Of a stretch of DNA of 64,000 nucleotides, positions 16,770 to 33,694 are shown piece after piece. The stretch comes from Candidatus Parcubacteria bacterium (GTDB lineage Bacteria; Patescibacteriota; Minisyncoccia; JACPXH01). The translations under genes were made by a program, and so were the position numbers. Location of the stretch: assembly GCA_016196625.1 (NCBI GenBank), contig JACPXH010000013.1, forward strand, positions 4,516 to 68,515, read 5' to 3'. The notes beneath the pieces were generated by a model that did no database searches, was not told the origin of the DNA, and was given only the letters and a program-made list of their open reading frames with translations. How positions within the stretch are numbered: position 1 is the stretch's first letter; the number at the start of each line of letters is the position of its first letter.

Positions 16770-16924
16770 TCACCGAGGCGACCTTTCCGATTCATATTTT
16801 GTGCACTTCCTCATCCTTAAAGGATTCGTCAGCGCCTCCTTCTTTTTTATTTTAGTGGGCCGAAGGCCTCATCGAGCCTGAAGATCTCAGGGCCGAATGG
16901 CCTGATGAGCGAAGCGAAGAAGGG

Positions 16925-16996
16925 CTGCGGGGGAAGGAGTCGAACCTTCATACCGGGATTCAAAGTCCCGTGTCCTACCGTTAGACGACCCCGCAA
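16925..16996 (-). tRNA. tRNA-Gln (anticodon UUG)
   Basis: Cloverleaf folded by hand: acceptor TGCGGGG/CCCCGCA, D-arm GTCT-AACGGTA-GGAC, anticodon arm CGGGA-CTTTGAA-TCCCG, T-arm GAAGG-TTCGACT-CCTTC. No CCA is encoded. Confidence 0.8.
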
Positions 16997-17017: not shown

Positions 17018-18220
17018 TTACGCTTGGTGTCGAGGTTGATCGCCAGGCAGCAGTAGTTGTACCACCGCAAGCTCAAGGGGCAGCAACGGCAGCGGCGAGC
17101 GGCGCAGCTCGTTTTCTGCCCGGATAAACCGATCAATGACTCTGGTAAGCTGGTTAATCGGGAACGCGTTTGCGTGGGCGTGTACCGCGGCGAACTCCTC
17201 ATCGGTTAGAGATGTAGAGAGTGCAGCTTTGAGTTGGGGGCTTGCGGCGAGCACCATGGCTCGGCGCAGGTGCTGGATAAGGCCCTTGGTAAATTCGTGC
17301 AGGTTGATTCCGGCATCCGAAAGCTCGTGCAGGTTGTGCACGGCGCCGGCAAGGTTATGCGCAGAGAGTAAATCAACGAAGCCTGTGATTTTTTCAATGT
17401 TCACTCGGCCGAGGATGCTCTCTACGTGGGCGAGCGTGATCGGGCTTTCGCTGAACGCAATTACCTGTTCCAGCGTGCGTTCGGCATCGCGGAGCGATCC
17501 CTCGCCCGCGGCGGCAACTGTGCGCAAGGCCGCGGCCTCAATCTTCACTCCCTCGGCTTTGGTGAGCGTAGACAAGCGCGTTTCAATTTGTGGGACCGTA
17601 AATTTTTTAAAGTCGAACCGCTGAACACGCGAGAGAATCGTGGCCGGCATGCGTTCCACCTCAGTGGTGGCTAAGACAAAGATGGCGTGCGCCGGCGGCT
17701 CTTCCAGAGTTTTTAAGAGCGCGTTGAACGCTTCCTTGGTGAGCTGATGTGCTTCGTCAATGATGTAGGCTTTGTATTTTGCTTTGGCCGGCGCGAAGCG
17801 TATGCCTTCACGCAGCTCACGGATTTCGTCAATGCCGCGGTTGGAAGCCGCGTCAATTTCCACGAGGTCGAGGGCGACCCCTTTTGAGAATTCTTGGCAG
17901 GAGAGGCATTTGTTGCAGGGTTCAACGGATTTGTGGGGCCCGCCTTCGCCAAGGCTTCGGCGGATGCTCAATGTGTCCGCGGATTTTCCTGCGGAAATTC
18001 CGGACACATTGGCACAGTTGACGGTCTTGGCGAGGATGCGGGCGAGGGTGGTTTTGCCGGTGCCGCGTGAGCCTGCAAAGAGGTACGCGTGCCCCACGCG
18101 CCCCAATGCGATGGCGTTCGTGAGCGTGCTCACCACGTGCTCTTGCCCGACTACTTCGGCAAAGGTCTGCGGTCGGTATTTGCGGTAGATAACTTGGCGC
18201 ATCATTGCGCAGGATATCAC
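17018..18220 (-). CDS. dnaX: DNA polymerase III subunit gamma/tau
   Basis: AAA+ Walker A GSRGTGKTT, a zinc module CNKCLSCQEF and an SRC/sensor region. Confidence 0.85.
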   Translation of the reverse strand: MISCAMMRQVIYRKYRPQTFAEVVGQEHVVSTLTNAIALGRVGHAYLFAGSRGTGKTTLARILAKTVNCANVSGISAGKSADTLSIRRSLGEGGPHKSVEPCNKCLSCQEFSKGVALDLVEIDAASNRGIDEIRELREGIRFAPAKAKYKAYIIDEAHQLTKEAFNALLKTLEEPPAHAIFVLATTEVERMPATILSRVQRFDFKKFTVPQIETRLSTLTKAEGVKIEAAALRTVAAAGEGSLRDAERTLEQVIAFSESPITLAHVESILGRVNIEKITGFVDLLSAHNLAGAVHNLHELSDAGINLHEFTKGLIQHLRRAMVLAASPQLKAALSTSLTDEEFAAVHAHANAFPINQLTRVIDRFIRAENELRRSPLPLLPLELAVVQLLLPGDQPRHQA

Positions 18221-18282: not shown

Positions 18283-18314
18283 ACATATTATAATACGATC
18301 GTATTATAATATGT
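18283..18314. promoter_or_regulatory. 32-bp perfect palindrome ACATATTATAATACGATCGTATTATAATATGT overlapping the start codon of the PaaX-like regulator; putative auto-operator
   Basis: Perfect dyad read directly. Half-site ATTATAATACGA. Related sites at 18967, 21361, 37578 and 49594. Confidence 0.5.
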
Positions 18315-18921
18315 GAACGGGAGGGAATCAGAGCGTATGAAGATAAACGGAGCGAAACCGGTGCGCCGGCGGCCGAAGCTACGCGGGCCTTCCCGGGAGT
18401 TCCTGCGGTATCTCGCCGTTGCCGGAGTCGTTGTGGCGATCTCATTGATTGCGCCGCAGCTTCCGGTACAGCTCCTCAAGAACTTCCTGCGCAGACGCCA
18501 CACGTTCGACCCGTCGTCCTTCAGGCAATTTGGTGCGCGTCTGCACAAGCAAGGGCTTGTCAAAATGCAGCAACGAGAAAGCATCCTTACGTTCCGTTTG
18601 ACTGCGGGGGGAGAACGTCTGGCGCAGCAGATCGCGCTCACTAACATCTCGATTGTTCGGCCGCCACGGTGGGATGGTCTTTGGCGGGTCGTCCTCTTTG
18701 ATATCCCGGAGCATGATCGCTTTACGCGGGATTCATTCCGCGCCCTCTTAGAGCGCATCGGATTTGTGAAGATTCAGCGGAGTGTGTTTGCTCATCCCTT
18801 TCCATGCGACAAAGAGATTGAGCTTGCCGTTCGAGTATTCCATCTCGATCGCTCGGTTATTCTGTTTACCGCGACGACTCTGAGCGACGATCGCAGACTC
18901 CGAAGTTTATTTAATCTGTAA
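18313..18921 (+). CDS. PaaX-family-like transcriptional regulator (wHTH + WDGxW domain)
   Basis: PRWDGLWRVVLFDIPEHD is comparable to E. coli PaaX PAWDGKWLLLLSEGLDKS. It is preceded by a wHTH-like segment and followed by GFVKIQRSVF. The start may be the ATG at 18337. Confidence 0.5.
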   Translation: MNGRESERMKINGAKPVRRRPKLRGPSREFLRYLAVAGVVVAISLIAPQLPVQLLKNFLRRRHTFDPSSFRQFGARLHKQGLVKMQQRESILTFRLTAGGERLAQQIALTNISIVRPPRWDGLWRVVLFDIPEHDRFTRDSFRALLERIGFVKIQRSVFAHPFPCDKEIELAVRVFHLDRSVILFTATTLSDDRRLRSLFNL

Positions 18922-19813: not shown

Positions 19814-20335
19814 TTAAACTTGAGTTACCCTTCTGTTTCCTCGGAGCCACTTGGTCTGCTGGAGCCGGCCGGTTCGCCAATCGTAGGCGAAGGTCGCGGC
19901 GAACACAAGTCCGAAGAACAGGAATGCTGCCCGCTCATAGAAGGCTCCACTCACGAATACCACGGGCAACGCGGTCAGGGGCACCAGGTATACGAGTAGT
20001 GAGACGACGACGAGATTGTGGTACGTATCGGTGAGTGTATTCCTCCAGATACCGCTGGCTATCACTGTTGCGTCGAGAACCCCTACGGCGACGCTCGCCC
20101 AACCGATGGCGAGCTGATTCCGACGGAGCCACTCCGGCGCGCCCTCGCGTTGGAGCACTGTGACTCCGATCATCACACAGACGATCAACGCCACGTCTCC
20201 GTACGCGTTTGAGAGCGCGATGTTATATGGGAACCCCTCGAAGTATCGACGGCCTAGCGGCAGGATGCCGATACACAGGAAGAAGAGAACCGCGAACGTG
20301 AGCCAGATCGGCATTGCGGCTAGCAGGTTGAGCAC
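19814..20335 (-). CDS. Integral membrane protein (about 5 TM), hypothetical
   Basis: Hydrophobic helices throughout. No motif. Confidence 0.45.
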   Translation of the reverse strand: MLNLLAAMPIWLTFAVLFFLCIGILPLGRRYFEGFPYNIALSNAYGDVALIVCVMIGVTVLQREGAPEWLRRNQLAIGWASVAVGVLDATVIASGIWRNTLTDTYHNLVVVSLLVYLVPLTALPVVFVSGAFYERAAFLFFGLVFAATFAYDWRTGRLQQTKWLRGNRRVTQV

Positions 20336-20504
20336 GGCGTACCCCCTCTTCTGTTTTTCGGCTCGGTCATTCGAGCCGAGGTTTGAGTAAAAAGAACGCC
20401 CGATTCCTCCTTCTCTAAAAGCACTACTCGGTAATGCTCTCGGAAAAGGTTGGGAGAACGAGCGGCTGTCCCGCAGGATAGACCAACTCGTTCTCCCGAT
20501 AACG

Positions 20505-21050
20505 CTAGGCGGTCTCGGCGCGCTTGATCACCGTGAGCATCTCGTCCAGCAGCTCGCGGCGTTTACGGATTGCGATGAGACTCGTTTCGCGGCGCTTTTC
20601 GGCCCTCGCGAGCGCATTACGGAACGCCGAGACGACCTCATCGAAGAAGAAGAACTCCCAGGTTGGTTGACCACTATCCTCGGTACAGTGGAGATGGAAT
20701 CTGCGTGCAGGGCAGATCCGCAGAACCAAAAAGGTCCCTTTCTCTCCCAAGCACAGCTCCTCGTCCAGGTCGGTCCCGTTGATGGCGTCGTGGACCTGCT
20801 GTCGCAACAGCCGTACCGACCTCTCCTTGGTAAAATGGTTGGGGGGGAGCTGGGGACAACGCTCGCCGTGCGCGGCGTAGATCCACTCGATCGGTACCGC
20901 GATGTGTCCAAGGATCGGTTTCAGACGTTGCACGAGCTCGGAGACGATTTCTCTCGCCTTCGCTGCGCACTCGAGATCCCGGACGGTCGAGTCTTCACCG
21001 TACATGAGATCATGAACGCGGAAACTTGTCGGACTGTTGGGCGTACCCAT
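20505..21050 (-). CDS. Hypothetical protein (181 aa)
   Basis: ATG at 21048-21050. No recognisable domain. Confidence 0.4.
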   Translation of the reverse strand: MGTPNSPTSFRVHDLMYGEDSTVRDLECAAKAREIVSELVQRLKPILGHIAVPIEWIYAAHGERCPQLPPNHFTKERSVRLLRQQVHDAINGTDLDEELCLGEKGTFLVLRICPARRFHLHCTEDSGQPTWEFFFFDEVVSAFRNALARAEKRRETSLIAIRKRRELLDEMLTVIKRAETA

Positions 21051-21481: not shown

Positions 21482-24400
21482 CTAAACAGCCGTCGGCGGC
21501 TCGATCGCTTTACCTCCGACGATGAATTTTTTGAGGAAGGTCTCGACGGTCATCTGCAGCGGTCGCTCGCGGCTGGGCGTGATTTTGAGATAGTCTTGAA
21601 CACGTCGGGCAAGCCCGCCGAAATCACGCATAGCCGGAGAGTCTTTTTCAGCGAGTAGTCTTTCCACGGTTAAGGTTTTGAGTTCGGCTAATTTACTCGA
21701 AGGCAGCTCAACGGATTTGAGCAGTTCGGAGAAAGCTCGCTGCTGGCTTCCAAAATCCGGCGAGAGGGTCAGGCGCTGGCGGGTCGCATCGAGCCGCTGC
21801 ATCTCCTCGAAGATGGCGCTCTCGCGCGCTTGGTTGTCGGCGGCGTTGTGCCACTCGTACTCAAGGCGTTGGCGGACGTCGTGGATGCGCTGGAGCACCT
21901 CTTCCTGTTTGATCAAATCCGCCTGTCTAAAGTCGCGGTGCAGCTCGTCCAGCGCGGAGGAAAATTCATCGGGTGGAGCAACGGCAATCTGCTCCACTTG
22001 TTTGGTTATTTCAGCCGAAGGAGCAATTTTCTCTTGTAGCCACTCGGGCACTTCCTTGCCCAAGCGGCGGTAGATGTCGGCCAAGTCCTTCGCCGTGCCC
22101 GTGGCAAGGCCGCTTTCCGGGATTACTTCAAAGTGCGCCGGCGCGCCTTCCGCAGCTGACACAAACTTGACCACGTCCCCGGGATGAACCAAATCAGGCA
22201 GGTGCTGGACCGATTGTTCCCACGCCGCGGCAAACTCTTTGGCCGAAATTTTGCCCTCCCCTGCACCGACCAGAGATTTCGCCGCATCCCAGACGTTGCC
22301 GCCCTGCTCGATGGTTGCGGCCGGCGCCTGAGCGATTGCTTCGGTCAACGCGCTAGGTTCCGTTGCACCGTGCCATTCGCGCATTCCGACGGCCCTGGCC
22401 GCTTCGCGGAGAGCTTCGTTTTGCTGGTCTGATAGCTTAACTGCCTGTTCGATTTCTGCTTCGCTTAAGCCGGCCGGAACAGTTGGCGGAGTTTCCTGAA
22501 ATTGTTTGATCGCTTCTTCGCCCATCCCCTCCGGCTTTCCGTATGCGGCTTCATCATGGCTCGGCGGAGACGTGGCTTCGATGTGTCGAACCTCATCGCT
22601 CAACGAGCCAGAGGCGTGGGGGCCGCGCGTCAAATCTGCTCGGTCAAAACGCATCGCCGTGAACCGTTCGCTCGTATCGTTGAAGTTTTTCCACCAGTTT
22701 TGCGCCGCAGCCTCGGCGGCGCCCGACACGCTTTTCTCGGACAATTCGTCTGTTATAGCGCCAATCCCTTTTCCCTCAAACTCTGTCAGCAGTTCCTCTA
22801 CAACCTCCACGGGCGGCCTCTCGAGCAGGGCGTTGACCGCCGCACCGCCAATGCCGTAGGCAATGGCGAGTTTGCTTGCGGCTTGGAAGAATTCGCCCGT
22901 TCGCTCCAGGCCCGTTCGGCGCCCCCGCGCTTCTTTGGATCGCAGCATCCCGCCGGTCAGACCGTGGAGCGTTTCGGCCGTGCTCGTCAAAAACAGGTCC
23001 TTTGCTTGTGCGATTCTCTTGCCCCGGAATGACGCGGAATGTTCGCCGTCCCACGCGGCTTTTTCGTACGCGCGGCCCGCCTTTGCCCATCGCTCCGCAG
23101 CCGCGGTGGCCGCGTACGCAGCGCCGCGCAGCACCGGCATCCCGCCGAGCACAAGGGCGGTATTCAGCGCTTCGCGAGCCACCTGATAGCCGGAGATTTT
23201 GGTGTTGAGGTAGAGACGCGAAAGCTTGTCGGCGCGGCTCATATCTTCTTGGCGTAACTCTTCGTCGGTCCGTTTGCGTTCGGCCATGATGCTGGCAAGG
23301 CGTTTTCGAAACTCCTTTTTTTCGTGCGCCGGGAGGTACTGCGCCTGCTCAAGCGCCTCTTTGAAACGTTTGACCGTTGGCGCCACCGCCTCGGTGTAGG
23401 CAAGGTTGTCAGGTCGGTAGAGCGCCGTTCGCTCTTCGGCTGCCCGGCGCTCGGCGCGGAGCGTATGAGCCATTTCAGCAAGTGCTGCCTGCACTTCTCG
23501 TCGCTCTCGGCGGACTTTTCCGCGTTGGCGCCCCCACGCAAAAACGTCATAGAAGAATTTCACGCCCAGGAGGGAGCCTGCGGTTTTGGCCGCGGCAGCG
23601 CCAACGTGCTTGAGCACGCCGGCCGCCACCCGACCGGCTTTGGGCCGCTCGCGGCGTCTTTCGGCAGTAGCGTCAGACGGAGGAGCAGACTCGCGCATGC
23701 TGCGGGCAAGGGCATGCACGCGGGCGAGCGCATCCGCGATCTCGGGATCTCCGGGTTGGCGCGCTTCGGCCTTGTCTGCGCCCTGTGCAGTTTCAGCCAA
23801 AACCCGTGCGCGCTCTTCTCCCTCGCTGGCCGCCTCGGTTACGGCCGCTGCGTAGTCGTAGGCTGTCTCGCCATCAGCGGCGCGACTCGGCGAGGGGGCT
23901 TGTCGTTCGACTGGTTCGGTTTGGGTGGGTTCCGGTCGTTCAGGCGTAGCTGGTGGTATCGTTTGTTGCAGCAGCGCCCAGTGACTCTCTTCCGTAGTTT
24001 GTTGTCGTTGCGTTCGGGTCGGGCCGCCGTCGTTTGGAAATTCGTCTGGATGCTGTTCCAGCAGCCGTGAGGCTTGCGTGCGCGCCTCCGCTTCAGTGAA
24101 TACCGAGAGGTCGGCATTGGCCGCAATGACCCGGCGGATTTCATCTGCTTGAGCCGACTGTTCTTCGCGCTGGAGCCGTTCGGTTCGGGTCGGGCCGCTG
24201 GTCGGGTACAGATCCGGTCGGGTGAGGAGACGCTGGATCGCTTCTGCCCGGCTCATATCAACTCCGGCCGCGCGCGCTTCTTCCACCATGCGGTGGATTT
24301 CATCCTCATCAGGCGAAAGCGCCGGCTTTTCCGGCTCTGGCCGCGCTGCGGCGTCGGCCATCGCCGCTTCGTCGGCTGCGACCGTTGTCGTCATCTCACT

Positions 24401-25903
24401 CGCAGCGCGTCTGGCAGCCTTATCCGCAGCTTCTTCTGCGTCCGGCTTTGCCGGTCTGGTTGGCGCGGTTGTCAGCTCTTCGGCCGGGGGTTGGGCGGTA
24501 CCGGCACGGTGTCGCGCCCGCGCGCGGCGAAGCGAGTCTTCGTCCCAAGCCAGATCGCCTTCATCATAAACACGTCCACCCCTTGCCTTTCTTTGATTGC
24601 GCTGTTTTTGTGGTCTGGTTTCGTCTGCGGCCGGTGCTGGCGTTTCCGCTTCGATCGTCGTGAGAACATCCGGCTCTTTTTCTGCTAAGTCGTACGCTTC
24701 CCATTGACTGATGCCGTGCTGTTGAGCTAGACGGTTTACCAGTTCCCAGTGGTGGCGGGTCTGCTCATAGTTGCGGACGTTTGACGGGGCAGGCGGCGCT
24801 TCGCCTGGCTCAGGAGTCGGAGGTGGCGCCGGTTCGGGTTTTGGCTCTGGCGCGGGGGGCGTTTCCGGACCGGCGATTTGCTTGACGGCGTTCAATGAGT
24901 AGTAATGGATAATGTGCTCGCGCGCGGCACGCTCATCTCCGTTTGCGGTGCGCCCGGCCAAGGACCGTATTTCATTTTGGAGCTGCGCCGATTGCTCCGG
25001 CGTGAGCCCTTGGAGGAATGTTTCAATTTCGGTCTGCAGTTCGGGCGGATTTTCCGGATACTCGCGTTTTCCCCGGCGTTGTTCGGCAGGCGCAGGAGCG
25101 GGCGGGCTGACTACGCGCTCGCGCGACCAGTCCGGATAGCGGCGCAAAATCAAAAGACTCGCCTCACGGATCATTTGGGCGCGGTTTTCCGGCGTTACCG
25201 GTATTTCGTGGTTACTCAAAAAGATCTCTGCTTCTTTTTCAAGGAGTGCCTGTGTGTCTGTCGGCAGATTCGCAAGATCGCTCAAGGCATTCTCGAGCGC
25301 AGCTTTTTCCTCCGGAGTTTTGGGCGGGGCCGTCAGTTCAGCAAAAGTTTTCTCCCAGCGCTTTGGTCGTCGCGGCGCGGGAGTGGGCACTGGCTTTTCA
25401 CCGGAAGTCTCCGTGGCGGCAGGGGTTGGTTCGGCAGGCGGAGCTTCTCGGCCAGCCGCGTCGCTTGTCTCTTCGATTTCGGCAGCGTCAGCAGCCGGGG
25501 TACCTTCAGTTGTCTCAATCACGGCCGGGGATGGTAATGGCTCCACGGGTAGTCCGCGGGGCACGCTCCCCGCCCGCCGCGCGCGCCGGGTGTCTGGCTC
25601 TTCGTCAGGCTGACCCCCTATCTCTGGTGAGTCCTTTGCTCTTGGCGGGGGCGGAACGGTTTCGGCACGCTGGAGGAATTTAAGCCGTCTGTCGAGCGCC
25701 ATGAGCTTTATTTTCGCCTCGGGCCTTTCAAGAACGCCGAGCGCCTCGACTCTCCGCATTGCCTCCTCGTACGCTTCCTGCTCTTCGGGCAGGAAAGTTT
25801 CCCCGTTGTTGTTGCGCTTGGCTTCTTCGTAGGCAAACTTAATGAAATCGGCCAACGCCTGTTCATGACTTTCAGTCCACGGGTTTGGGATTTCTCTCGA
25901 CAT
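21482..25903 (-). CDS. Giant Ala/Glu/Pro/Arg-rich low-complexity protein (1473 aa from the ATG at 25901-25903), function unknown
   Basis: Single long ORF. Pro-rich linkers (PAPEPKPEPAPPPTPEPGEAPPAP) and predicted coiled-coil/helical acidic stretches. No signal peptide at MSREIPNPW. The listed start at 26044 would overlap the upstream gene. Confidence 0.65.
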   Translation of the reverse strand: MSREIPNPWTESHEQALADFIKFAYEEAKRNNNGETFLPEEQEAYEEAMRRVEALGVLERPEAKIKLMALDRRLKFLQRAETVPPPPRAKDSPEIGGQPDEEPDTRRARRAGSVPRGLPVEPLPSPAVIETTEGTPAADAAEIEETSDAAGREAPPAEPTPAATETSGEKPVPTPAPRRPKRWEKTFAELTAPPKTPEEKAALENALSDLANLPTDTQALLEKEAEIFLSNHEIPVTPENRAQMIREASLLILRRYPDWSRERVVSPPAPAPAEQRRGKREYPENPPELQTEIETFLQGLTPEQSAQLQNEIRSLAGRTANGDERAAREHIIHYYSLNAVKQIAGPETPPAPEPKPEPAPPPTPEPGEAPPAPSNVRNYEQTRHHWELVNRLAQQHGISQWEAYDLAEKEPDVLTTIEAETPAPAADETRPQKQRNQRKARGGRVYDEGDLAWDEDSLRRARARHRAGTAQPPAEELTTAPTRPAKPDAEEAADKAARRAASEMTTTVAADEAAMADAAARPEPEKPALSPDEDEIHRMVEEARAAGVDMSRAEAIQRLLTRPDLYPTSGPTRTERLQREEQSAQADEIRRVIAANADLSVFTEAEARTQASRLLEQHPDEFPNDGGPTRTQRQQTTEESHWALLQQTIPPATPERPEPTQTEPVERQAPSPSRAADGETAYDYAAAVTEAASEGEERARVLAETAQGADKAEARQPGDPEIADALARVHALARSMRESAPPSDATAERRRERPKAGRVAAGVLKHVGAAAAKTAGSLLGVKFFYDVFAWGRQRGKVRRERREVQAALAEMAHTLRAERRAAEERTALYRPDNLAYTEAVAPTVKRFKEALEQAQYLPAHEKKEFRKRLASIMAERKRTDEELRQEDMSRADKLSRLYLNTKISGYQVAREALNTALVLGGMPVLRGAAYAATAAAERWAKAGRAYEKAAWDGEHSASFRGKRIAQAKDLFLTSTAETLHGLTGGMLRSKEARGRRTGLERTGEFFQAASKLAIAYGIGGAAVNALLERPPVEVVEELLTEFEGKGIGAITDELSEKSVSGAAEAAAQNWWKNFNDTSERFTAMRFDRADLTRGPHASGSLSDEVRHIEATSPPSHDEAAYGKPEGMGEEAIKQFQETPPTVPAGLSEAEIEQAVKLSDQQNEALREAARAVGMREWHGATEPSALTEAIAQAPAATIEQGGNVWDAAKSLVGAGEGKISAKEFAAAWEQSVQHLPDLVHPGDVVKFVSAAEGAPAHFEVIPESGLATGTAKDLADIYRRLGKEVPEWLQEKIAPSAEITKQVEQIAVAPPDEFSSALDELHRDFRQADLIKQEEVLQRIHDVRQRLEYEWHNAADNQARESAIFEEMQRLDATRQRLTLSPDFGSQQRAFSELLKSVELPSSKLAELKTLTVERLLAEKDSPAMRDFGGLARRVQDYLKITPSRERPLQMTVETFLKKFIVGGKAIEPPTAV

Positions 25904-25920: not shown

Positions 25921-26250
25921 TTACCTGTCTCTCCGTTCCTTCAACGCTCGCTCCAGTTCGGAAACTGCGGAGGTTGCTTGCTCGTTTATCTGTTTCTCGC
26001 GAGCACTGCGCTCCGCGGCGAATTGCCTCAACCGTTCCAACCACTGCGCATCAATAGCGGCTGTGGCTGCGTCCAACACTCGTTTCTCGAGTAAGTCAGA
26101 GAAACGCATAAGCTGTTCCGGGGTCATCTCGGGCAGCATGGCGAGCCACGCCTGCTTTTCGTCTTCCGGCAAGGGGGCCGTAGCCAACAGGAGGCCGAGC
26201 TTCCTGCCGAGCAAGCCAGCAAGGGTTTGGACTTTTTCAACGCTTGGCAT
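25921..26250 (-). CDS. Coiled-coil hypothetical protein (109 aa)
   Basis: ATG at 26248-26250 (MPSVEKVQTLAG...). Stop lies 17 nt before the giant-gene start. Confidence 0.4.
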   Translation of the reverse strand: MPSVEKVQTLAGLLGRKLGLLLATAPLPEDEKQAWLAMLPEMTPEQLMRFSDLLEKRVLDAATAAIDAQWLERLRQFAAERSAREKQINEQATSAVSELERALKERRDR

Positions 26251-26866
26251 TGAATACGAAAATTTTAAAGCCAAGAAAATTCCCGGCGAGAGCCAGTATT
26301 GTTCCGGCGAGGTTTGCGACGTTGAGCCACTGTGTCGCCGTGAGTCCCGTAGGCGGGCTCGCAAAATGGGTGATGGCAGAAACTAATAGTGCTGCCAAGA
26401 GCGAGCTCGTGAGCGTAACGGCAGAAAACTGTAGATATTGCACTGGTGCCGCGCGCGCTGCAGTTGCATTGAAGGTCCAGTTTTTGTTCCACAAGAAGCT
26501 ATGGGTGTTCGCGATGACAAAGGCCATAACAACGAACACCCCTGCGCCGAGCCCTTGCGTGACGCCAGTGAGGTGTGCGAGGAAATTGAGGATGGCAAAA
26601 CTCAAGAGCGTATTGACCACTCCAATCAGGCCATACTTAGCGAACTGGTAGAGTGTCGGTAGCTGTCGGGTGAGCACTGCCGCAAACCATAGGCCAACTG
26701 GTGCGGCGATCCCCACCACCAGCCACAGCCACGGCAGGAAAGAGCGCACGAGCGAATTACCCACGCTAGCACTCGTGAGCACGTACCACGCGAGGAGTCC
26801 CGCGGCGACTCCGATCACTGTGGCATTCAACGCATCGTGTGCGGCAAGCTTTGGGGTCATTGACAA
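26237..26866 (-). CDS. GtrA-family membrane protein
   Basis: YGLIGVVNTLLSFAILNFL ... SFLWNKNWTFN, the GtrA signature. Confidence 0.7.
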   Translation of the reverse strand: MSMTPKLAAHDALNATVIGVAAGLLAWYVLTSASVGNSLVRSFLPWLWLVVGIAAPVGLWFAAVLTRQLPTLYQFAKYGLIGVVNTLLSFAILNFLAHLTGVTQGLGAGVFVVMAFVIANTHSFLWNKNWTFNATAARAAPVQYLQFSAVTLTSSLLAALLVSAITHFASPPTGLTATQWLNVANLAGTILALAGNFLGFKIFVFNAKR

Positions 26867-26955: not shown

Positions 26956-27207
26956 ATGTCTGGTGATGAAGTCGGGAGGGCTCGCGACCTTGATCCTTTC
27001 GAACAATACCTGTGCGCATTTCGGGATTCTGTGGCGTCACGTCCGCGGCTGTCCGGGCGCATCCTATCCGTCTCTCTTCGGGAAAATGTCGTCGTGGTGC
27101 GGCTGTCCGACGGACGCGACGCACTCATCCCGCTGGTGATGCGCCCCGACGGGGTCGTGGCGCACGAGGGAGTGCAGGTGTTCCCGCCGCGGGCGGCTGG
27201 GGCGTAA
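26956..27207 (+). CDS. Hypothetical small protein (83 aa)
   Basis: Strong SD AGGAGGTGAAGA before the ATG. Confidence 0.5.
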   Translation: MSGDEVGRARDLDPFEQYLCAFRDSVASRPRLSGRILSVSLRENVVVVRLSDGRDALIPLVMRPDGVVAHEGVQVFPPRAAGA

Positions 27208-28036
27208 GCCCAAGGCCGCCCGTTTTCTTACGCGCAAACTCTTCGACAAAGGCGTCGATGCTGGCGATGGCGTCAGTGCACGCGTGCTGGATCGGGATTT
27301 CGTGAACGTGGGGGTGACTCTGGATTTGTTTCTGGAGCGAGCGTCGGATTTCGGCGATGAACTGTGCGGCTAGCCTGGCGCGTTCGCTCTGGCCGAGGTA
27401 GTCGGCCGGCGACTGTTCGCGGCTGTGACCCTCCCATTCGGTTATGACTCGATCGAGAATGGCGGCATCCGGTTCGAAGAGCGCGAGCGGCGTCACGCTG
27501 CCGTCGGCATTCCTCACGAACGCTTGCTCCTCAACGCGCCCTTCTTTTTCAGCGCGGAAATGCGCAGGGCTGATAGGTTCTGGGCGCAGCGGGTCACGTC
27601 TGCGCGTGAACATCTGTACGGCAACGCCACGTTCCCCCGGAACGGGGAGGAAGAAAAAATCCGCCTGAGCTTTCCCGACGGGGTTTTCATCGGCGTGAGG
27701 TTTGCGGCGGTCAATGCTCAACGGCGCATCGACAATGTGATCCCGGCCCAAGGTTTTCGCGAGCGCGGCCTCGACAAGCTCTTCGGCAACGTCGCCAAAC
27801 TCTTTTTTATATTCAATGGTCAGCAGGTCTTTTTTCGCCCGAGCGCGCTCCGTGGCGGCTTGAACCGATTTTTCCACGCCGGTCTCTAAAAGGAGTTTGA
27901 CCTCGCGGTCAATCCTCGCCGTGAGTCTCGGGTCGTCCGGCGAACGGGGTTGCGGCAATTCGAATGGATTGGTTGTGGACATCGGGTCTGGCGCGGCTCT
28001 CAAGGATGGATATACGATACCAGTACAGTATAGCAC
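27125..28036 (-). CDS. Hypothetical protein (303 aa)
   Basis: Long ORF with no motif. Its 3' end overlaps the convergent 26956-27207 gene by 83 nt, so one end may be mis-called. Confidence 0.45.
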   Translation of the reverse strand: MLYCTGIVYPSLRAAPDPMSTTNPFELPQPRSPDDPRLTARIDREVKLLLETGVEKSVQAATERARAKKDLLTIEYKKEFGDVAEELVEAALAKTLGRDHIVDAPLSIDRRKPHADENPVGKAQADFFFLPVPGERGVAVQMFTRRRDPLRPEPISPAHFRAEKEGRVEEQAFVRNADGSVTPLALFEPDAAILDRVITEWEGHSREQSPADYLGQSERARLAAQFIAEIRRSLQKQIQSHPHVHEIPIQHACTDAIASIDAFVEEFARKKTGGLGLTPQPPAAGTPALPRAPRPRRGASPAG

Positions 28037-28533: not shown

Positions 28534-28593
28534 GCTCGGCCCGGTCTCTCCAGACCGGGCCGATTCTTGTTTCGAAAATTTTCACTTTTCCCC

Positions 28594-31020
28594 TTACCGC
28601 CCGGTCCCCTGCTCTGTGGGTGGAGCTGTGGTGAGCGCGGGCATTTGGGAAAGTCGGGTCCGAACTTCTTGTTCGACCGCCGCGCGGTCCCGGCCGTATA
28701 TTGAGCTCGACCACTGCCGAACTGCGTGTGCCGCCGCCGGATCCCCTTTGCGCGGCAGGTTGATCACAAAGTTAAAGGGCGAAGTGGTTTTGCCTTGAGA
28801 CATGAGCCGCGCGTAGGCGTTGAAGTTATCAAGGTTGATGAGATCAGATGCGGCAAAGGCCGGCGCAAACTGGGGTTCGATGGATTCGGCGTCTTCCACT
28901 CCCACCCGAAACGAAACCAAGGATCCCACGTTGCCGAAGACCGCGTTTTTGATTTCGTCCGTGAGTTGTTTGATGAATTGATGCGCGAGCGTGAGATTGA
29001 GCCGGTACTTGCGTGCTTCGGACAGGATTGTCGCAATGGACGGGGTCGCGAAGCTCTGGAATTCGTCCAAGTAGAGGTAAAAATCGGACCGCGCCTCCTC
29101 GGCTGCGTCGGTTCGGCTCAAAGCCGCCAAAAGCAGTTTGCCCACGAGAATCAGGCCAAGGAGGGAGCTGTTGAGTTCGCCCAGACGCCCTTTGGTGAGG
29201 TTAACGAGGAGAATCTTGCGTTCGTCCATCACTTGGCGAAAATTAAATGAGCTTTGCTCTTGGGCGATGATGGGGCGCATGATGTCGTTGGCAATGAACA
29301 GGTTCATCTTTGAAGTGATGTAGGGCACCATGTTCGCGAGCGCCGCTTCCCCGCCGGCTTTCTCCGCCTCCAGCTCCCAGAAATTCTTGATTACCATGTT
29401 CGTCGTGCGTGAGAGTTTCAACTTGCGAAACTCTTTATCCGCGAGCACCCGCGGGATTTCCAGGAGCGTATTGCCGGAGGCAGGATCTTCCATGACCAGC
29501 AGCACGGCGTTGCGCATGTATTGTTCAAACATGGGCCCGCCGGTAACTTTCAGATCGTAGAGCTTGTCAAAAATGGCGATGAGTTCATTCGCGATGAAGG
29601 TTTTCTGCTCGGGGTGCGCCGGGTCATATTCAAGCATGTTAAGCCCGAGGGGCCGTTCGATGTCGCCCGGGTTGAAATAGATTACTTCTTCCCGGCGGCT
29701 CGCGGGCACGAGTCCGAGGAGGTCGTCGGCCAAATCTCCGTGCGGGTCTATAAGCGCAAGGCCCTCTCCGGCCTCAATGTCTTGACGCGCGAGTTCTTTG
29801 ATGAGCGACGATTTGCCGGTTCCAGTTTGGCCTATAATATAGAGGTGTCTCCGGCGGTCTTCGCGCGCGATACGGATTACGGTTTCTCTGCCCCGAAAGA
29901 CGTTGCGCCCCAACATCAGACCTTCAAGGGGAAGGTTGAGCGGCGGCTCGGCCTGACGGGCTTTGAGCGCGTGCAGTTTGGGTGCTTCGAGCGAGGGGGT
30001 CGCAAAGTGATACATGCTACTCAACTCATCGGCACTCAAGATAAGCGCATCGCGTGAACGAAAGAGACGCCATGAAAACGCAAAGAGAAGCGACTCCAAC
30101 CGGCCGCCCTTGCGCCGCTTAAATGAGAGCGAGTTGGTCGGGGGAGCGCTCAAGGGGGCAAAGGCGGTTTCCATCTGTTCGAGCAGCGCTTTCGCCCGAG
30201 TCTCTTCTGCCGCCGAGGCCACCACCCGAACATTGGCTGCAAAGACGGGCGTGCGGGCCTTGCGCTCGATGGCCTCCACCGCTTCGGGGTCAACGGGTTC
30301 GTTCTTGCTTTCGCCGGGGCCTCGGGTCGAGTTTGCTTTGAGCTTTTGGGCTTGGGCCACGCTTTCGGCGCCCCAGCGTTTGGGAGCGGGTTGGAGCAGA
30401 ATTTGGATGGCCGCACCCTCCCCTTCTTTGGCAATTTTGCTTAAGGCCGTGGCAATCGCGCTTAAGGGATCCACTTCAAGCTCACGGAAGGTGCGCAGCG
30501 ACAGGCGGCTGTTTTTGACCTCAAGGATTGAGGCTTCGTGTCTGCCGTGGGGATTGAACAGGTTATAGTCCGGTACCGCCTCGATTACGGCTTCCGGGAA
30601 AAAGCCGTGGATGTGTTTTTCGAACGCTTCAGCCAGCCGCCTCGGGAAGGCCGCGAAAAACTGAATTTCCTCGCCCACATGGGGGACGGCCAGTTCAAAG
30701 GCAACCGTGGGCATCCCCCGGAGGATCGCCCGCCACCACTTCTCTTTTAGAAACGTCAGGCTCGCGTAGAACTGACTCATGACGGCGAGCCCCTCGCGCA
30801 TTCGTTCCACTGCCGATCGATCCGACTCCAGGGGACGGTTCGGAAGCGCAATCGCGAAGAGGGCGAGGTTCAGGGCGCGCGCGGTCTCCCCTCGGCGTCG
30901 GAGCGTAACTAAACCCCAAGCCGCCGCAGTGCCGCCCACCGTAAGGACGGCGAGGGTTATGAGGATGAGCCAGAGGAGGAAAGAGAGATCGAGGGGCACG
31001 GTCAAAAGTTCAAATGCCAA
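28594..31020 (-). CDS. Membrane-anchored VirB4/TraG/HerA-like P-loop NTPase (AAA_10/DUF87-type)
   Basis: Two N-terminal TM helices. Walker A GQTGTGKSS followed by LIDPHGDL, Walker B FYLYLDEFQ, then LTLAHQ. TTG start at 31018-31020 lies inside an AT-rich heptad leader. Confidence 0.55.
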   Translation of the reverse strand: MAFELLTVPLDLSFLLWLILITLAVLTVGGTAAAWGLVTLRRRGETARALNLALFAIALPNRPLESDRSAVERMREGLAVMSQFYASLTFLKEKWWRAILRGMPTVAFELAVPHVGEEIQFFAAFPRRLAEAFEKHIHGFFPEAVIEAVPDYNLFNPHGRHEASILEVKNSRLSLRTFRELEVDPLSAIATALSKIAKEGEGAAIQILLQPAPKRWGAESVAQAQKLKANSTRGPGESKNEPVDPEAVEAIERKARTPVFAANVRVVASAAEETRAKALLEQMETAFAPLSAPPTNSLSFKRRKGGRLESLLFAFSWRLFRSRDALILSADELSSMYHFATPSLEAPKLHALKARQAEPPLNLPLEGLMLGRNVFRGRETVIRIAREDRRRHLYIIGQTGTGKSSLIKELARQDIEAGEGLALIDPHGDLADDLLGLVPASRREEVIYFNPGDIERPLGLNMLEYDPAHPEQKTFIANELIAIFDKLYDLKVTGGPMFEQYMRNAVLLVMEDPASGNTLLEIPRVLADKEFRKLKLSRTTNMVIKNFWELEAEKAGGEAALANMVPYITSKMNLFIANDIMRPIIAQEQSSFNFRQVMDERKILLVNLTKGRLGELNSSLLGLILVGKLLLAALSRTDAAEEARSDFYLYLDEFQSFATPSIATILSEARKYRLNLTLAHQFIKQLTDEIKNAVFGNVGSLVSFRVGVEDAESIEPQFAPAFAASDLINLDNFNAYARLMSQGKTTSPFNFVINLPRKGDPAAAHAVRQWSSSIYGRDRAAVEQEVRTRLSQMPALTTAPPTEQGTGR

Positions 31021-31806: not shown

Positions 31807-31999
31807 GATTGCTTAGTCTAGCACAGTCCGGGGCCTCGACTTACTTTAATTTATCCACACGGCGGCATGCAGGAGCGTGCTAGACTGGAAGCGGAAAAAC
31901 TCCTTTTTGGATCGTACGGGATTGCTTCGCCCGCCTCCGCCAGTTGGCGGATGGCGGGCTCGCAATGACGGCCGACAGCGGCTCTCGCTGAACTCTATT

Positions 32000-33694
32000 A
32001 TGGATAAGCGCCAACGAACTTGGATTTTCCTTGGCATCATTCTTGTAGTTGCCATCTTTTTTCGCTTCTGGCAGTTTACCGAATTTCCTCCCGGGTTGTA
32101 TCCGGACGAGGCGGTCAATGGCGTAAATGGTCTCCAAGCGGTTGAGACCGGCAACTATCAAGTTTTCTACCCGGACAACAACGGCCGCGAGGGGCTGTGG
32201 ATGAACGTGCAGGGATTAGTCTCAAAGGCGCTCGGCCCTTCGCCCTGGGCTCTGCGGGTGCCCAGCATGGTGATAGGCGTGCTCACGGTTCTCGGCCTTT
32301 TCTTATTAGTGCGCGAGCTAGTCGGCGACGAGGTGGCTTTGGTTTCGGCAGCGCTGCTGGCGACTTCCTTTTGGCACACGGTGTTTTCCCGCATGGCCTT
32401 CCGGGCCATTCTATTGCCGTTCGTGCTTACCTATCTTTTCTACTTTTTGGTTCGGGGATTGAAACGCGGGCGCGGATCAGATTTTGTCGGAGCCGGTTTT
32501 TTCTTCGGGCTGGGTTTTCACACCTATATTTCTTACCGGATCGTGCCGCTGCTGCTGGTTGCGCTGTTCGGCGTACTCATTTGGTTAAAGCGGCGCAAGG
32601 TTTGGCAGCCAATATTCTGCGCGCCGTGTGCGGTTAGTCTTATGCTGATTGTGGGGCTTGTGGTGGCAACTCCCATGCTTCTTTATTTGATTCAGCACCC
32701 GGAAGATTGGAGCGGTCGGACCGGCGGCATTTCTGTCTGGAGCGCGCAAAGTCCTCTCAAGGCCGTTCTCATCTCCACGGCCGCAACATTAGGGCAGTTT
32801 AACGTGCTCGGGGATCGCAACTGGCGGCATAACTTCCCCGGCCGGCCGGAGCTGTTTTGGCCCGCCGGGATTATGATGCTGGTAGGGCTTGCGATAACGT
32901 TTCGGACAGCGTTCCGAATATTCCGCGCAAAGCCAGCCGCGCCACCCTCGGAGGAAACCGTTCGGCCATGCCACTCTAATATACTAGTATATGATAGTGG
33001 AAACGGCTGGCTCGTCATTTTCGGGGCGTGGCTCATGCTCGGATGGTTCTTTGCCTTGATGGTGCCGGCGATTCTCACGCGCGAAGGCCTGCCCCATGCG
33101 CTGCGCACCATCGGCACTATCCCGCCCGCGTACGCGTTTGCCGGGGTTGGCACGTGGCTCACGTGGAAGGCGTTGCGGCGCAAGGTTCTCGGTGGGCTCG
33201 AAGGATTTTTGGAACGCGATCCGAATCTGGAGTTTCTGCGATCCAGATTGAACCGTATTCGGCGGTGGTTCGGGGTGCTGCTCGCGACTTTTCTTCTGTG
33301 GGTGGCGGGCAGCGAAGGGGTTACGTACTTTGTGCGTTGGGCGCCCCACCCGCGCGTGGCCGACGCTTTTGCGGCTCACCAGACCGAGCTCGCCAACTAC
33401 ATCAACGCCGCGGAGCCCGACATTTCGATCTACGTGGTGGTTAACGCCCCCAGTCTCAACGTCAACGGCATCTCGCTCAACGCCCAACCCCTCGTGTATC
33501 TGAATCACGGCCGGCCCAACTTGTTTTTCGTAACTCCAGAGACCATCGGTTCGATCCCCCGCGATCTGCATCGGGCCGAGATTATCCTGCTCGATTCGGA
33601 TCGGCAGTTTCTGGCCCAACTCCAGCGTGAGCGTTATCCCCAAGGAAAGACCAAGGCAGTCTCGGGGACGATCGTGCCGTTGGTGATTCCGTAA
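32000..33694 (+). CDS. Glycosyltransferase family 39 (ArnT/PMT-like) polytopic membrane protein
   Basis: N-terminal loop motif GLYPDEAVNGVNG (DE motif) after the first TM, with many TM helices. ATG at 32000. Confidence 0.7.
   Translation: MDKRQRTWIFLGIILVVAIFFRFWQFTEFPPGLYPDEAVNGVNGLQAVETGNYQVFYPDNNGREGLWMNVQGLVSKALGPSPWALRVPSMVIGVLTVLGLFLLVRELVGDEVALVSAALLATSFWHTVFSRMAFRAILLPFVLTYLFYFLVRGLKRGRGSDFVGAGFFFGLGFHTYISYRIVPLLLVALFGVLIWLKRRKVWQPIFCAPCAVSLMLIVGLVVATPMLLYLIQHPEDWSGRTGGISVWSAQSPLKAVLISTAATLGQFNVLGDRNWRHNFPGRPELFWPAGIMMLVGLAITFRTAFRIFRAKPAAPPSEETVRPCHSNILVYDSGNGWLVIFGAWLMLGWFFALMVPAILTREGLPHALRTIGTIPPAYAFAGVGTWLTWKALRRKVLGGLEGFLERDPNLEFLRSRLNRIRRWFGVLLATFLLWVAGSEGVTYFVRWAPHPRVADAFAAHQTELANYINAAEPDISIYVVVNAPSLNVNGISLNAQPLVYLNHGRPNLFFVTPETIGSIPRDLHRAEIILLDSDRQFLAQLQRERYPQGKTKAVSGTIVPLVIP

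What the first reader, a model, noticed from the sequence alone, without database searches (positions are those of the whole stretch)
21482..25903. 1473-aa Ala/Glu/Pro/Arg-rich giant protein without a signal peptide
A single uninterrupted ORF covers 7% of the window. It carries Pro-rich linkers (PAPEPKPEPAPPPTPEPGEAPPAP) and long acidic helical segments. No enzymatic motif, TM helix or signal sequence was seen. It is co-oriented with an upstream coiled-coil protein and a GtrA-like gene. Many long plus-strand ORFs are listed inside it and are almost certainly GC-driven artefacts. Giant low-complexity proteins of unknown role are typical of reduced symbiont-like genomes and are rarely characterised.
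Basis: seen in the sequence. Interest (0 to 1): 0.6.

Follow-up and report, generated by a model that had tools for sequence, protein, structure and literature searches.

The report
Giant Parcubacteria protein with small partner
The 1473-residue ORF is a real, selected gene of a Parcubacteria (candidate phyla radiation, CPR) bacterium. Its C-terminal half belongs to a widespread but undescribed protein family that always follows a ~110-residue partner gene, and its function is still unknown.

Summary
The ORF is real. It lies at 21482-25903 on the minus strand, encodes 1473 aa, is A/E/R/P-rich and has no N-terminal signal sequence. Codon usage favours only this frame. dN/dS against a second Parcubacteria copy is 0.30. 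The long plus-strand ORFs inside it are antisense shadow ORFs.

It is not simply low-complexity.
- Residues 1-739 are an acidic, Pro-rich, fast-evolving, probably disordered region.
- Residues 740-1473 hold three conserved modules. Module A is a basic all-helical domain found in at least 122 database proteins. Module B is a small alpha/beta domain and module C a helical bundle; their AlphaFold2 model has pLDDT 90.

None of the modules matches Pfam, NCBIfam, PHROGs, PDB sequences, or PDB/BFVD folds.

In all 13 loci examined, a conserved ~110-aa helical partner gene sits directly upstream of the module-A gene. Here it is 25921-26250. No other neighbour is shared. The links to GtrA and to the VirD4-like ATPase hold only in close relatives.

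My best guess, at low confidence, is a non-enzymatic, membrane-associated two-protein scaffold. Function remains undetermined. Interest is moderate: an undescribed family of Patescibacteria (the CPR phylum), with no demonstrated new mechanism.

The parts
21482..25903 (-). Giant gene, 1473 aa plus stop codon (NCBI HYZ80_03135, hypothetical protein)
   Evidence: ORF and translation. Identical database protein. Codon usage favours this frame. dN/dS 0.30 against L001.
23687..25903 (-). N-terminal region, aa 1-739. Acidic (net -43, pI 4.9), 11.5% Pro, probably disordered, lineage-specific.
   Evidence: Composition. Found only in P0002 and P0003. 63-84% aa identity and many indels against P0002.
24788..24859 (-). 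Pro-rich linker PAPEPKPEPAPPPTPEPGEAPPAP (aa 349-372)
   Evidence: Translation. Partly deleted in P0002.
23984..24328 (-). Tandem internal duplication, aa 526-582 and 583-640 (motif ...LL..PD.[YF]P..GPTRT.R)
   Evidence: Self-alignment score 62-65 against a shuffled mean of 24, sd 6.
22634..23686 (-). Module A, aa 740-1090. A conserved, basic (pI 9.8, net +14), all-helical domain with three Gly/Ala-rich semi-hydrophobic helices.
   Evidence: Found in 122 of 151 representative hits. Alignment A1. Conserved polar residues and family hydropathy. Charge pattern across the family. AlphaFold2 (AF2) model all-helical, pLDDT 65.5.
23534..23635 (-). Semi-hydrophobic helix 1 of module A (aa 757-790), with conserved G780, K782 and D786
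23090..23176 (-). Semi-hydrophobic helix 2 of module A (aa 910-938). Carries the most conserved motif: N914, G921, R926, Y930, E937, R938.
22823..22891 (-). Semi-hydrophobic helix 3 of module A (aa 1005-1027). Kyte-Doolittle (KD) 1.30. Basic N-flank, acidic C-flank.
   Evidence: Flank charge 4.1 against 1.2 K+R, N-flank higher in 115 of 120 relatives.
22337..22633 (-). Acidic linker, aa 1091-1189
22004..22336 (-). Module B, aa 1190-1300. A small alpha/beta domain (motif GGNVW...AWE.S...LVH.GD.V...FEV).
   Evidence: Found in 41 representative hits. Alignment A2. AF2 pLDDT about 90.
21485..22003 (-). Module C, aa 1301-1473. A helical bundle with a conserved C-terminal T[VI][ED].FL[KQ]K motif.
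   Evidence: Found in 12 hits, always directly after module B. AF2 pLDDT 85-98.
25921..26250 (-). Partner gene, 109 aa, helical (motif G.KLG.LI..L....K.A.L.LLP.M..EQI.RL..LLE...T..ID). Its stop lies 17 nt before the giant's ATG.
   Evidence: Sequence. Relatives directly upstream of the module-A gene in 13 of 13 loci, HMM E 1e-15 to 1e-45.
26237..26866 (-). GtrA-family membrane protein. Its last 14 nt overlap the partner's start. A lineage-specific operon neighbour.
   Evidence: Pfam PF04138, E 6e-15. Overlap. Conserved only in L002 and L003.

Best explanation
The gene encodes a structural, non-enzymatic protein. It most likely works as a complex with the small, mostly acidic helical partner encoded directly upstream. 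I infer that the complex sits at the cytoplasmic membrane.

Proposed anatomy:
- Module A is the basic helical core, with three Gly/Ala-rich semi-hydrophobic helices. It is the conserved anchoring and assembly domain. It would bind anionic lipid, or partly insert into the membrane, and bind the partner.
- The 739-residue acidic, Pro-rich N-terminal region is a flexible cytoplasmic spacer or tether that evolves freely.
- The folded B-C head is the interaction end. Relatives that have modules B and C but lack module A ('B-only' proteins) have true TM helices, and there the head is predicted to lie outside the membrane.

Shown here: the gene is real and under purifying selection, it has this modular anatomy, the family exists, the partner is obligatory, the charge pattern is conserved, and no catalytic or known domains are detectable.

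Inferred only: membrane association, topology, complex formation, and any cellular role such as envelope organisation or host contact.
For: - The gene is real and selected.
- Module A occurs in at least 122 representative proteins, and modules B and C are separately mobile.
- The partner gene is directly upstream on the same strand in 13 of 13 loci, with gaps of -8 to +51 nt. It is the only neighbour shared by more than 3 loci.
- Module A is basic in 89% of the family (median pI 9.4). The rest of the protein is net acidic in 95%. The partner is mostly acidic (median pI 5.2).
- Helix 3 of module A has a basic N-flank and an acidic C-flank in 115 of 120 relatives. It reaches KD 1.6-1.8 in a few relatives.
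- In B-only relatives, module B follows a hydrophobic segment with K+R-rich N-flanks in 11 of 11 cases where that segment lies within 150 aa.
- Cys is 0% here and 0.1% in the family, against 0.53% in window reference ORFs.
- Nothing catalytic or known was detected: Pfam, NCBIfam and PHROGs, PDB sequences, and PDB/BFVD folds.
- Neighbours in distant relatives are housekeeping genes, so this is a chromosomal core-type gene, not a mobile element.
Against: - No helix passes a TM threshold. The query maximum is KD 1.30 and the family mean maximum is 1.03.
- Each semi-hydrophobic helix carries conserved charged residues (K782, D786, R926, and a family-conserved Arg in helix 3). That fits a soluble helical bundle equally well.
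- The flank-charge pattern across homologues is not independent evidence.
- The module A model is only moderate (pLDDT 65, pTM 0.37).
- No proper TM or signal-peptide predictor was available, and no complex prediction could be run.
- There are no expression or localisation data.
- Basic charge would also fit nucleic-acid binding.
Confidence: 0.4

Rival explanations
1. The protein is an exported or surface-displayed protein without a Sec signal. The neighbouring VirD4/TraD-like ATPase (28594-31020) would deliver it, with the small partner acting as a secretion chaperone or adaptor. The nearby GtrA and PMT_2 (GT-C glycosyltransferase family) proteins might glycosylate its Pro/Thr-rich region.
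For: - An 808-aa TrwB/TraD-like ATPase lies 2.7 kb upstream on the same strand. It is also present in L002 and near a B-only relative in L009.
- GtrA overlaps the partner gene, and two PMT_2 GT-C genes are adjacent.
- 'Small helical partner plus large signal-less helical protein' resembles chaperone/effector cassettes.
- Cys depletion.
- Very large proteins of other Patescibacteria are reported to be preferentially surface-targeted (PMC13059738).
Against: - The ATPase, GtrA and PMT_2 neighbours are absent from the more distant loci L004, L006-L008 and L011-L016. Only the partner is conserved.
- No other secretion-system genes occur in the 64-kb window.
- Neither the partner nor the giant hits WXG100, LXG or any chaperone family.
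Confidence: 0.12
2. The protein is a cytoplasmic nucleoid- or division-associated scaffold. The basic module A would bind DNA or RNA, or a division protein. The acidic disordered arms would act as a hub or spacer.
For: - Module A is strongly basic across the family, and there is no TM helix.
- Some loci place the cassette next to FtsZ (L008) or FtsK and GyrA (L016).
- Others place it next to DnaG (L015), GyrB (L008) or DnaX (window and L003).
Against: - These neighbours differ from locus to locus, and none is shared by more than 3 loci.
- In genomes of about 1 Mb, one replication or division gene within 8 kb is expected in roughly 40% of loci by chance (my estimate).
- No DNA-binding family or fold was detected.
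- B-C modules in relatives sit behind TM helices and are predicted to be outside.
Confidence: 0.12
3. The protein is a phage tape-measure-like or otherwise mobile-element protein. Such proteins are long and helical, have Gly/Ala-rich hydrophobic segments, and often follow a small chaperone-like gene.
For: The resemblance is superficial: size, helicity, semi-hydrophobic Gly/Ala helices, a small gene upstream, and a tRNA-Gln 4.5 kb away.
Against: - No PHROG hit for the giant, the partner or four relatives.
- No tblastn match in 50,697 phage or 72,556 plasmid records.
- No BFVD fold match.
- Neighbours are housekeeping genes, and synteny with PaaX and DnaX is kept in relatives.
- One TMP_3 match at E 0.21 in 1 of 35 members is noise.
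Confidence: 0.03
4. It is not a functional gene: a GC-driven open frame, or a decaying or mis-assembled sequence.
For: - High GC and low-complexity composition in the 5' half.
- The only close copy lies on a 3.5-kb contig fragment.
- Nucleotide identity to that copy is mosaic.
Against: - Codon usage is specific to this frame.
- dN/dS is 0.30 overall and 0.07 in the core.
- There are 228 homologues, conserved modules and a conserved partner.
- The B-C region gives a confident AF2 fold.
Confidence: 0.02

Closest known systems
Very large, poorly annotated proteins of Patescibacteria/CPR, and the Parcubacteria-enriched hypothetical families of Meheust et al. 2019
   Same: - The lineage is Patescibacteria.
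- The size is large and annotation is absent.
- A link to the envelope is likely.
- PMC6744442 reports 20 Parcubacteria-enriched families, mostly hypothetical, with 12 predicted to be membrane proteins.
- PMC13059738 reports that very large proteins preferentially carry TM or signal regions.
   Different: - This protein has no predicted TM helix, signal peptide or adhesion domain.
- I could not tell whether it corresponds to any of the published family numbers.
- The obligatory small partner gene is not something I found described.
DUF5663 (PF18908) small proteins
   Same: These are ~100-aa helical proteins encoded immediately next to module-B proteins in L009 and L010. They share a loose LG..LP.E.K motif with the partner.
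   Different: - The partner does not hit PF18908, even at E<=10.
- DUF5663 genes lie downstream of B-only proteins, whereas the partner lies upstream of module-A proteins.
- The function of DUF5663 is itself unknown, and no paper in the library mentions it.
Small helical partner plus large signal-less helical protein cassettes of type VII secretion (LXG toxins with Lap/WXG100-like partners; recalled from my own knowledge)
   Same: The gene order is small helical protein then large helical protein. There is no Sec signal. The C-terminal regions vary across the family. An FtsK/HerA-superfamily ATPase lies nearby in this window.
   Different: - No LXG or WXG100 match.
- Module A is often internal rather than N-terminal.
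- The ATPase is not a conserved neighbour.
- No toxin or immunity domains are present.
Envelope or division tethers such as TolA, TonB, ZipA and PopZ (analogy only; recalled from my own knowledge)
   Same: All combine an anchoring or assembly domain, a long charged or Pro-rich flexible or helical spacer, and a small folded interaction domain.
   Different: - There is no sequence or fold similarity.
- The domain order differs: here the Pro-rich region precedes the anchor.
- There is no clear TM anchor, and no ExbBD or TolQR partner genes.
LysM peptidoglycan-binding domain
   Same: Module B starts with a strand-helix-helix-strand arrangement and a 'G(D/N)..W.IA'-like motif.
   Different: - No PF01476 match in 35 members, even at E<=10.
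- No LysM structure among the Foldseek PDB hits.
- The domain is larger, with extra strands and helices.

Membership tests
Sec/Tat-exported protein | N-terminal signal peptide (basic n-region followed by a hydrophobic h-region) | tested here: not met
   The N-terminus MSREIPNPWTESHEQALADF... has no hydrophobic stretch. No dedicated predictor was available.
Integral membrane protein | At least one ~19-residue segment with TM-grade hydrophobicity | tested here: inconclusive
   The query maximum is KD 1.30 and the family mean maximum is 1.03, both below 1.6. A few relatives reach 1.6-1.8 in helix 3. Flank charges fit an in-to-out helix. DeepTMHMM or TMHMM were not available.
Module-A family (undescribed; defined here) | A ~330-aa helical domain with motifs SIFGVK..TD, K.SG...A.DALNTAL..G...LRG..Y....ER..KA, KD..V..T.ET and G...R..GI.G | tested here: met
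   The query was the seed. phmmer found 228 hits at E<1e-3. jackhmmer found 122 module-A proteins. Alignments A1 and A4.
Module-A family (undescribed; defined here) | A ~110-aa partner-family gene directly upstream on the same strand | tested here: met
   Window 25921-26250. Seen in 13 of 13 loci, six of which were retrieved independently of the partner.
LysM (PF01476) | Match to the LysM profile, or a beta-alpha-alpha-beta fold match | tested here: not met
   No hit at E<=10 in 35 module-B sequences. No LysM structure in Foldseek against PDB.
Phage tape measure protein | Match to TMP families and a tail-gene context | tested here: not met
   PHROGs gave no hit. Phage tblastn gave no match. 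The context is housekeeping genes.
T7SS LXG/WXG100-type cassette | An LXG N-terminal domain, WXG100/Lap partners and an EssC-type ATPase | tested here: not met
   No Pfam hits for the giant or the partner. The ATPase is not a conserved neighbour.
Type IV secretion substrate of the VirD4-like ATPase | Co-occurrence with the coupling ATPase and dependence on it | tested here: inconclusive
   The ATPase is present near the gene in the window, L002 and L009. It is absent within the ~8 kb fetched in the other loci. Dependence cannot be tested with these tools.
DUF5663 (PF18908), for the partner | Match to the PF18908 profile | tested here: not met
   No hit at E<=1 or at E<=10 across 12 partners.
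ESCRT-III/PspA-type membrane remodellers (considered because of the basic helical core plus acidic tail) | Match to the Snf7 or PspA_IM30 profiles, or a helical-hairpin fold match | tested here: not met
   No Pfam hit at E<=1. No such structure appeared in Foldseek against PDB for the module A model, although that model has low confidence.

The most novel reading that the evidence does not exclude
The partner plus module-A gene pair would be a previously undescribed two-protein module of Patescibacteria, present across the phylum and inherited with the core genome. Its B-C head would adopt a fold with no solved counterpart. It would form a CPR-specific envelope or cell-organisation apparatus: a membrane-anchored tether linking cytoplasm and cell surface in bacteria that lack most canonical division and envelope scaffolds.
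Probability: 0.3. Interest if true: 0.65.

Novelty: new member of a known kind. Interest (0 to 1): 0.4.

Why it matters
CPR bacteria make up a large share of bacterial diversity, and many of their lineage-specific genes have no known function. This analysis turns one 'giant low-complexity hypothetical' into a defined object.

- It has a conserved three-module core.
- It has an obligatory ~110-aa partner.
- It has a family-wide charge architecture.
- Its B-C head has a confidently predicted fold with no match in PDB or BFVD.

That gives concrete handles for experiments: constructs for structure determination, partner-binding tests, topology mapping, and searches in metaproteomes. If the cassette proves to be a core envelope or cell-organisation module of Parcubacteria, it would bear on how these ultra-small episymbionts build and organise their cells. 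If not, it remains one of many uncharacterised CPR families.

Tried and rejected
- **Homologue search with profiles.** The search for homologous proteins with the module A profile found nothing, and with the B-C profile found one protein. The word prefilter was swamped. So no source names or precomputed Pfam architectures were obtained beyond the phmmer representative hits.
- **LysM reading of module B.** No profile or fold support.
- **Tape-measure, prophage or plasmid origin.** No PHROG, phage, plasmid or BFVD match.
- **Module A as a diverged copy of the TM region of B-only proteins.** I saw a G.P motif by eye. hmmsearch gave E >= 0.17 and hhalign gave probability 0.3%, so I rejected it.
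- **Partner as DUF5663.** Not supported.
- **Functional link to DNA replication or division neighbours.** The neighbours are not shared between loci, and their frequency fits chance.
- **Functional link to the GtrA, PMT_2 or VirD4-like ATPase genes.** They are conserved only in close relatives, plus L009.
- **Internal repeats.** Apart from one tandem duplication and Pro-rich low-complexity matches, there are none.
- **Motif search in GTDB genomes.** The first attempt failed for lack of a conserved stretch. The narrower pattern recovered only 6 loci, so the taxonomic breadth is under-sampled.

Full report
**1. The observation**

The window carries an uninterrupted minus-strand ORF that ends at 21482. 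Its longest form starts at GTG 26044 (1520 aa).

The ATG start is the right one for three reasons.
- An identical 1473-aa protein is deposited as 'hypothetical protein HYZ80_03135 [Candidatus Parcubacteria bacterium]'.
- The two nearest full-length relatives start in the same way: MPREWPR and MMAREWPRN against MSREIPNPW.
- The upstream gene stops at 25921, 17 nt before this ATG.

Composition is A 15.7%, E 12.2%, R 9.0%, P 8.0%, with no Cys. The quoted Pro-rich linker is at aa 349-372.

The frame is coding.
- It has one stop, against 18-55 in the other five frames.
- Codon-usage log-likelihood, measured against 20 long ORFs of the window, is +0.27 per codon here and at most 0.007 elsewhere. GC1/2/3 is 0.70/0.50/0.63, like the reference set.
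- A second copy exists: P0002, on the 3501-bp contig L001 from another Parcubacteria MAG (metagenome-assembled genome). It is 80% identical and gives dN/dS 0.30 overall, and 0.07 over aa 800-950.

The four longest plus-strand ORFs inside the gene all lie in the codon-for-codon antisense frame, the classical shadow frame.

No N-terminal signal-like hydrophobic stretch exists. No 19-residue window reaches Kyte-Doolittle 1.6; the maximum is 1.30.

**2. Anatomy**

The protein is not uniformly low-complexity.

*N-terminal region (aa 1-739).* It is acidic (net -43, pI 4.9), 11.5% Pro and 66% disorder-promoting residues. It evolves fast: 63-84% identity to P0002, with many indels. It is found only in P0002 and P0003. 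Its only repeat is one tandem duplication at aa 526-582 and 583-640.

*C-terminal half.* A filter-free phmmer search of 1.84 billion representative proteins with aa 641-1473 gave 228 hits at E < 1e-3 and 73 at E < 1e-10. The hits fall on two separate stretches of the query. Iterative searches within the hits defined three modules.
- Module A (aa 740-1090) occurs in 122 proteins.
- Module B (aa 1190-1300) occurs in 41 proteins.
- Module C (aa 1301-1473) occurs in 12 proteins, always directly after B.
- When A and B occur together (12 proteins), the order is always A then B.

*Module A.* It is all-helical in the AlphaFold2 (AF2) model (pLDDT 65.5, pTM 0.37). It contains three Gly/Ala-rich semi-hydrophobic helices, each with conserved polar residues: G780, K782, D786, Y898, K902, N914, R926, Y930, E937, R938, E977, T978 and G1017. 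The family-mean hydropathy peaks at only 1.03.

*Modules B and C.* They fold confidently (pLDDT 89.8, pTM 0.64) into a small alpha/beta domain followed by a helical bundle.

*Family-wide charge pattern.* Module A is basic: pI 9.8 here, a family median of 9.4, and net positive in 89% of members. The rest of the protein is net acidic in 95% of members. Cys is almost absent: 0.1% in the family against 0.53% in window reference ORFs.

*Size.* Family members have a median length of 1115 aa and reach 2432 aa. The N-terminal extension here is the tenth longest of 122. Low-GC relatives are E/K-rich rather than A/E/R/P-rich, so the striking composition here largely reflects this genome's GC content.

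**3. No known family or fold**

- The giant has no hit in Pfam at E <= 1 apart from noise, none in NCBIfam and none in PHROGs.
- Thirty-five full-length relatives have no Pfam domain, except PP2C in one.
- Thirty-five B-C segments show only scattered noise, even at E <= 10.
- Profiles of A, of B-C and of the partner find no PDB sequence. The best E-values are 0.27, 0.065 and 0.044, all chance matches.
- Foldseek with the B-C model finds nothing below E 0.3 in PDB or BFVD. The module A model gives only generic long-helix matches at E > 1.
- tblastn finds nothing in phage or plasmid records.
- All source names are 'hypothetical protein'. They come from Parcubacteria, Jorgensenbacteria, Kerfeldbacteria, Paceibacterota and other Patescibacteria bins. 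Two labels are probably wrong: Udaeobacter and Gammaproteobacteria.

**4. Context: a conserved two-gene cassette**

In every locus I could retrieve for a module-A protein, a gene of about 103-121 aa lies directly upstream on the same strand.
- Seven loci came by exact protein look-up.
- Six more came from GTDB genomes, found with a module-A motif alone.

An HMM built from seven of these small proteins recovers all 13, at E 1e-15 to 1e-45. Gaps to the large gene range from an 8-nt overlap to 51 nt. One locus, L008, has an extra 62-aa ORF in between.

All-against-all clustering of neighbouring ORFs shows that the giant and this partner are the only families shared by more than three loci.

The partner here is 25921-26250 (109 aa). 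The family motif is G.KLG.LI..L....K.A.L.LLP.M..EQI.RL..LLE...T..ID, followed by a coiled-coil-like tail. It has no Pfam, PHROG or PDB relative. It is mostly acidic, with a median pI of 5.2.

Proteins that have B (and C) but not A are instead followed by a DUF5663 gene (L009 and L010).

The local arrangement here runs: VirD4/TraD-like ATPase (28594-31020), a 303-aa ORF, GtrA, partner, giant, then PaaX_M on the opposite strand, then DnaX. It is kept only in the two closest relatives. GtrA overlaps the partner start by 14 nt, so in this lineage the three genes are probably co-transcribed.

More distant loci have unrelated housekeeping neighbours: aminoacyl-tRNA synthetases, Lgt, ClpP, FtsZ, FtsK, GyrA/B, DnaG and SecE. 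The rest of the window is housekeeping too. This is a stable chromosomal gene pair, not a mobile element.

**5. How it most likely works**

*What is shown.* The protein is selected and non-enzymatic as far as can be detected. It has a conserved basic helical core, acidic variable arms, an optional folded B-C head and an obligatory small partner.

*My inference, at confidence about 0.4.* It is a structural two-protein module at the cytoplasmic membrane.

Arguments for membrane association:
- The core is basic and carries semi-hydrophobic Gly/Ala helices.
- Helix 3 (aa 1005-1027) has 4.1 K+R on its N-flank against 1.2 on its C-flank, with the N-flank higher in 115 of 120 relatives.
- The same helix reaches TM-grade hydropathy in a few relatives.
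- In B-only relatives, module B lies behind a genuine hydrophobic segment. The flanks of that segment obey the positive-inside rule in 11 of 11 cases where it lies within 150 aa. This predicts that B-C is extracytoplasmic there.
- Cys is depleted.

Arguments against:
- No helix passes a TM threshold.
- Conserved charges sit inside the helices.
- The flank pattern across homologues is not independent evidence.
- The module A model is mediocre.

Whether the giant spans the membrane (N-terminus inside, B-C outside) or is peripheral and cytoplasmic cannot be decided with these tools.

*Rivals.*
- Export by the nearby VirD4-like ATPase, with the partner as chaperone and possible glycosylation by GtrA and the PMT_2 (GT-C family) glycosyltransferases (0.12). 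This is weakened because those neighbours are not conserved.
- A nucleoid or division scaffold (0.12). It rests on basic charge and scattered neighbours whose frequency fits chance.
- A tape-measure-like or mobile-element protein (0.03). No evidence supports it.
- A non-functional ORF (0.02). This is refuted for the conserved half.

**6. Comparison with what is known**

The closest described things are only descriptive classes: very large, poorly annotated Patescibacteria proteins (PMC13059738), and the Parcubacteria-enriched hypothetical families of Meheust et al. 2019 (PMC6744442).

Mechanistic analogies exist to TolA, TonB, ZipA and PopZ tethers, to T7SS LXG/Lap cassettes, to LysM and to ESCRT-III/PspA. 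They are resemblances only. Each membership test that could be run failed.

No paper in the searchable library mentions DUF5663 or DUF8128.

**7. Verdict**

I file the gene conservatively as a new member of the known but descriptive kind 'large lineage-specific CPR proteins of unknown function'.

The added finding is that its conserved half, together with the partner gene, defines a family. That family is not modelled in Pfam-A (2025 copy), NCBIfam 20 or PHROGs v4.

Interest is 0.4. A specialist would not be very surprised by one more unknown CPR family. However, the 13-of-13 partner linkage, the family-wide charge architecture and a confident fold without a PDB or BFVD match make it a tractable target.

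Noticed in passing
window 28594-31020 (-): An 808-aa TrwB/TraD/VirD4-like P-loop ATPase with an N-terminal membrane region. Its orthologue in L002 carries Pfam DUF8128. It matches phrog_5156 (unknown function) at E 3e-69 over aa 248-793. No other type IV secretion genes occur in the window.
   Followed up: partly
window 21482-25903 compared with L001 1-3501: Nucleotide identity between the two Parcubacteria copies is mosaic. It is 53-77% in the 5' third and 96-100% over nt 1950-2700 of the gene, and dS ranges from 0.05 to 0.93. This suggests recombination between populations or strongly uneven rates. The second copy's contig consists only of a fragment of this gene, as expected if strain variation broke the assembly.
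   Followed up: partly
L009 8320-8631; L010 2935-3219: Proteins with modules B/C but without module A are followed immediately by a DUF5663 (PF18908) gene. They have true TM helices upstream of module B. This may be a parallel small-partner arrangement. I could not show homology between DUF5663 and the module-A partner.
   Followed up: partly
window 31877-33694 (+) and 33795-35729 (+): Two tandem PMT_2 (GT-C fold) glycosyltransferase genes are transcribed divergently from the ATPase. An orthologue (E 2e-109) lies near the B-only protein in L009. Together with GtrA, this hints at a lipid-linked sugar glycosylation system nearby.
   Followed up: no
window 18313-18921 (+): A 202-aa PaaX_M / Cas2-like-domain protein (PF20803, E 2e-19) lies on the opposite strand. 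It is syntenic with the giant gene and DnaX in L002 and L003.
   Followed up: no
window 19814-21050 (-); promoter-like site 21222-21194 (-): Two ORFs without any family lie between the giant gene and PaaX: 181 aa, and a 173-aa hydrophobic protein. They have no counterpart in L002 or L003. An 11/12 sigma-70-like site (TTGACA-17-TATAGT) sits just upstream of the 181-aa ORF.
   Followed up: no
window 27125-28036 (-): A 303-aa ORF between the ATPase and GtrA has no Pfam, NCBIfam or PHROG match. It is conserved in L003 (E 1e-35) and weakly in L002.
   Followed up: no
L008 4154-5389; L016 3300-5843: In two distant loci the partner-giant cassette lies directly downstream of FtsZ (L008) or FtsK (L016). 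GyrB or GyrA is a few kb further on. I judged this compatible with chance in ~1-Mb genomes and did not test it statistically.
   Followed up: partly
window 16922-16996 (-): The window's single tRNA gene, tRNA-Gln(TTG), lies next to dnaX (17018-18220). No integration-type repeats were looked for.
   Followed up: no
window 28536-28563: A perfect 12-bp GC-rich hairpin (9 GC pairs, 4-nt loop) lies just downstream of the ATPase stop codon. It is the strongest terminator-like element in the 8.4 kb scanned.
   Followed up: no
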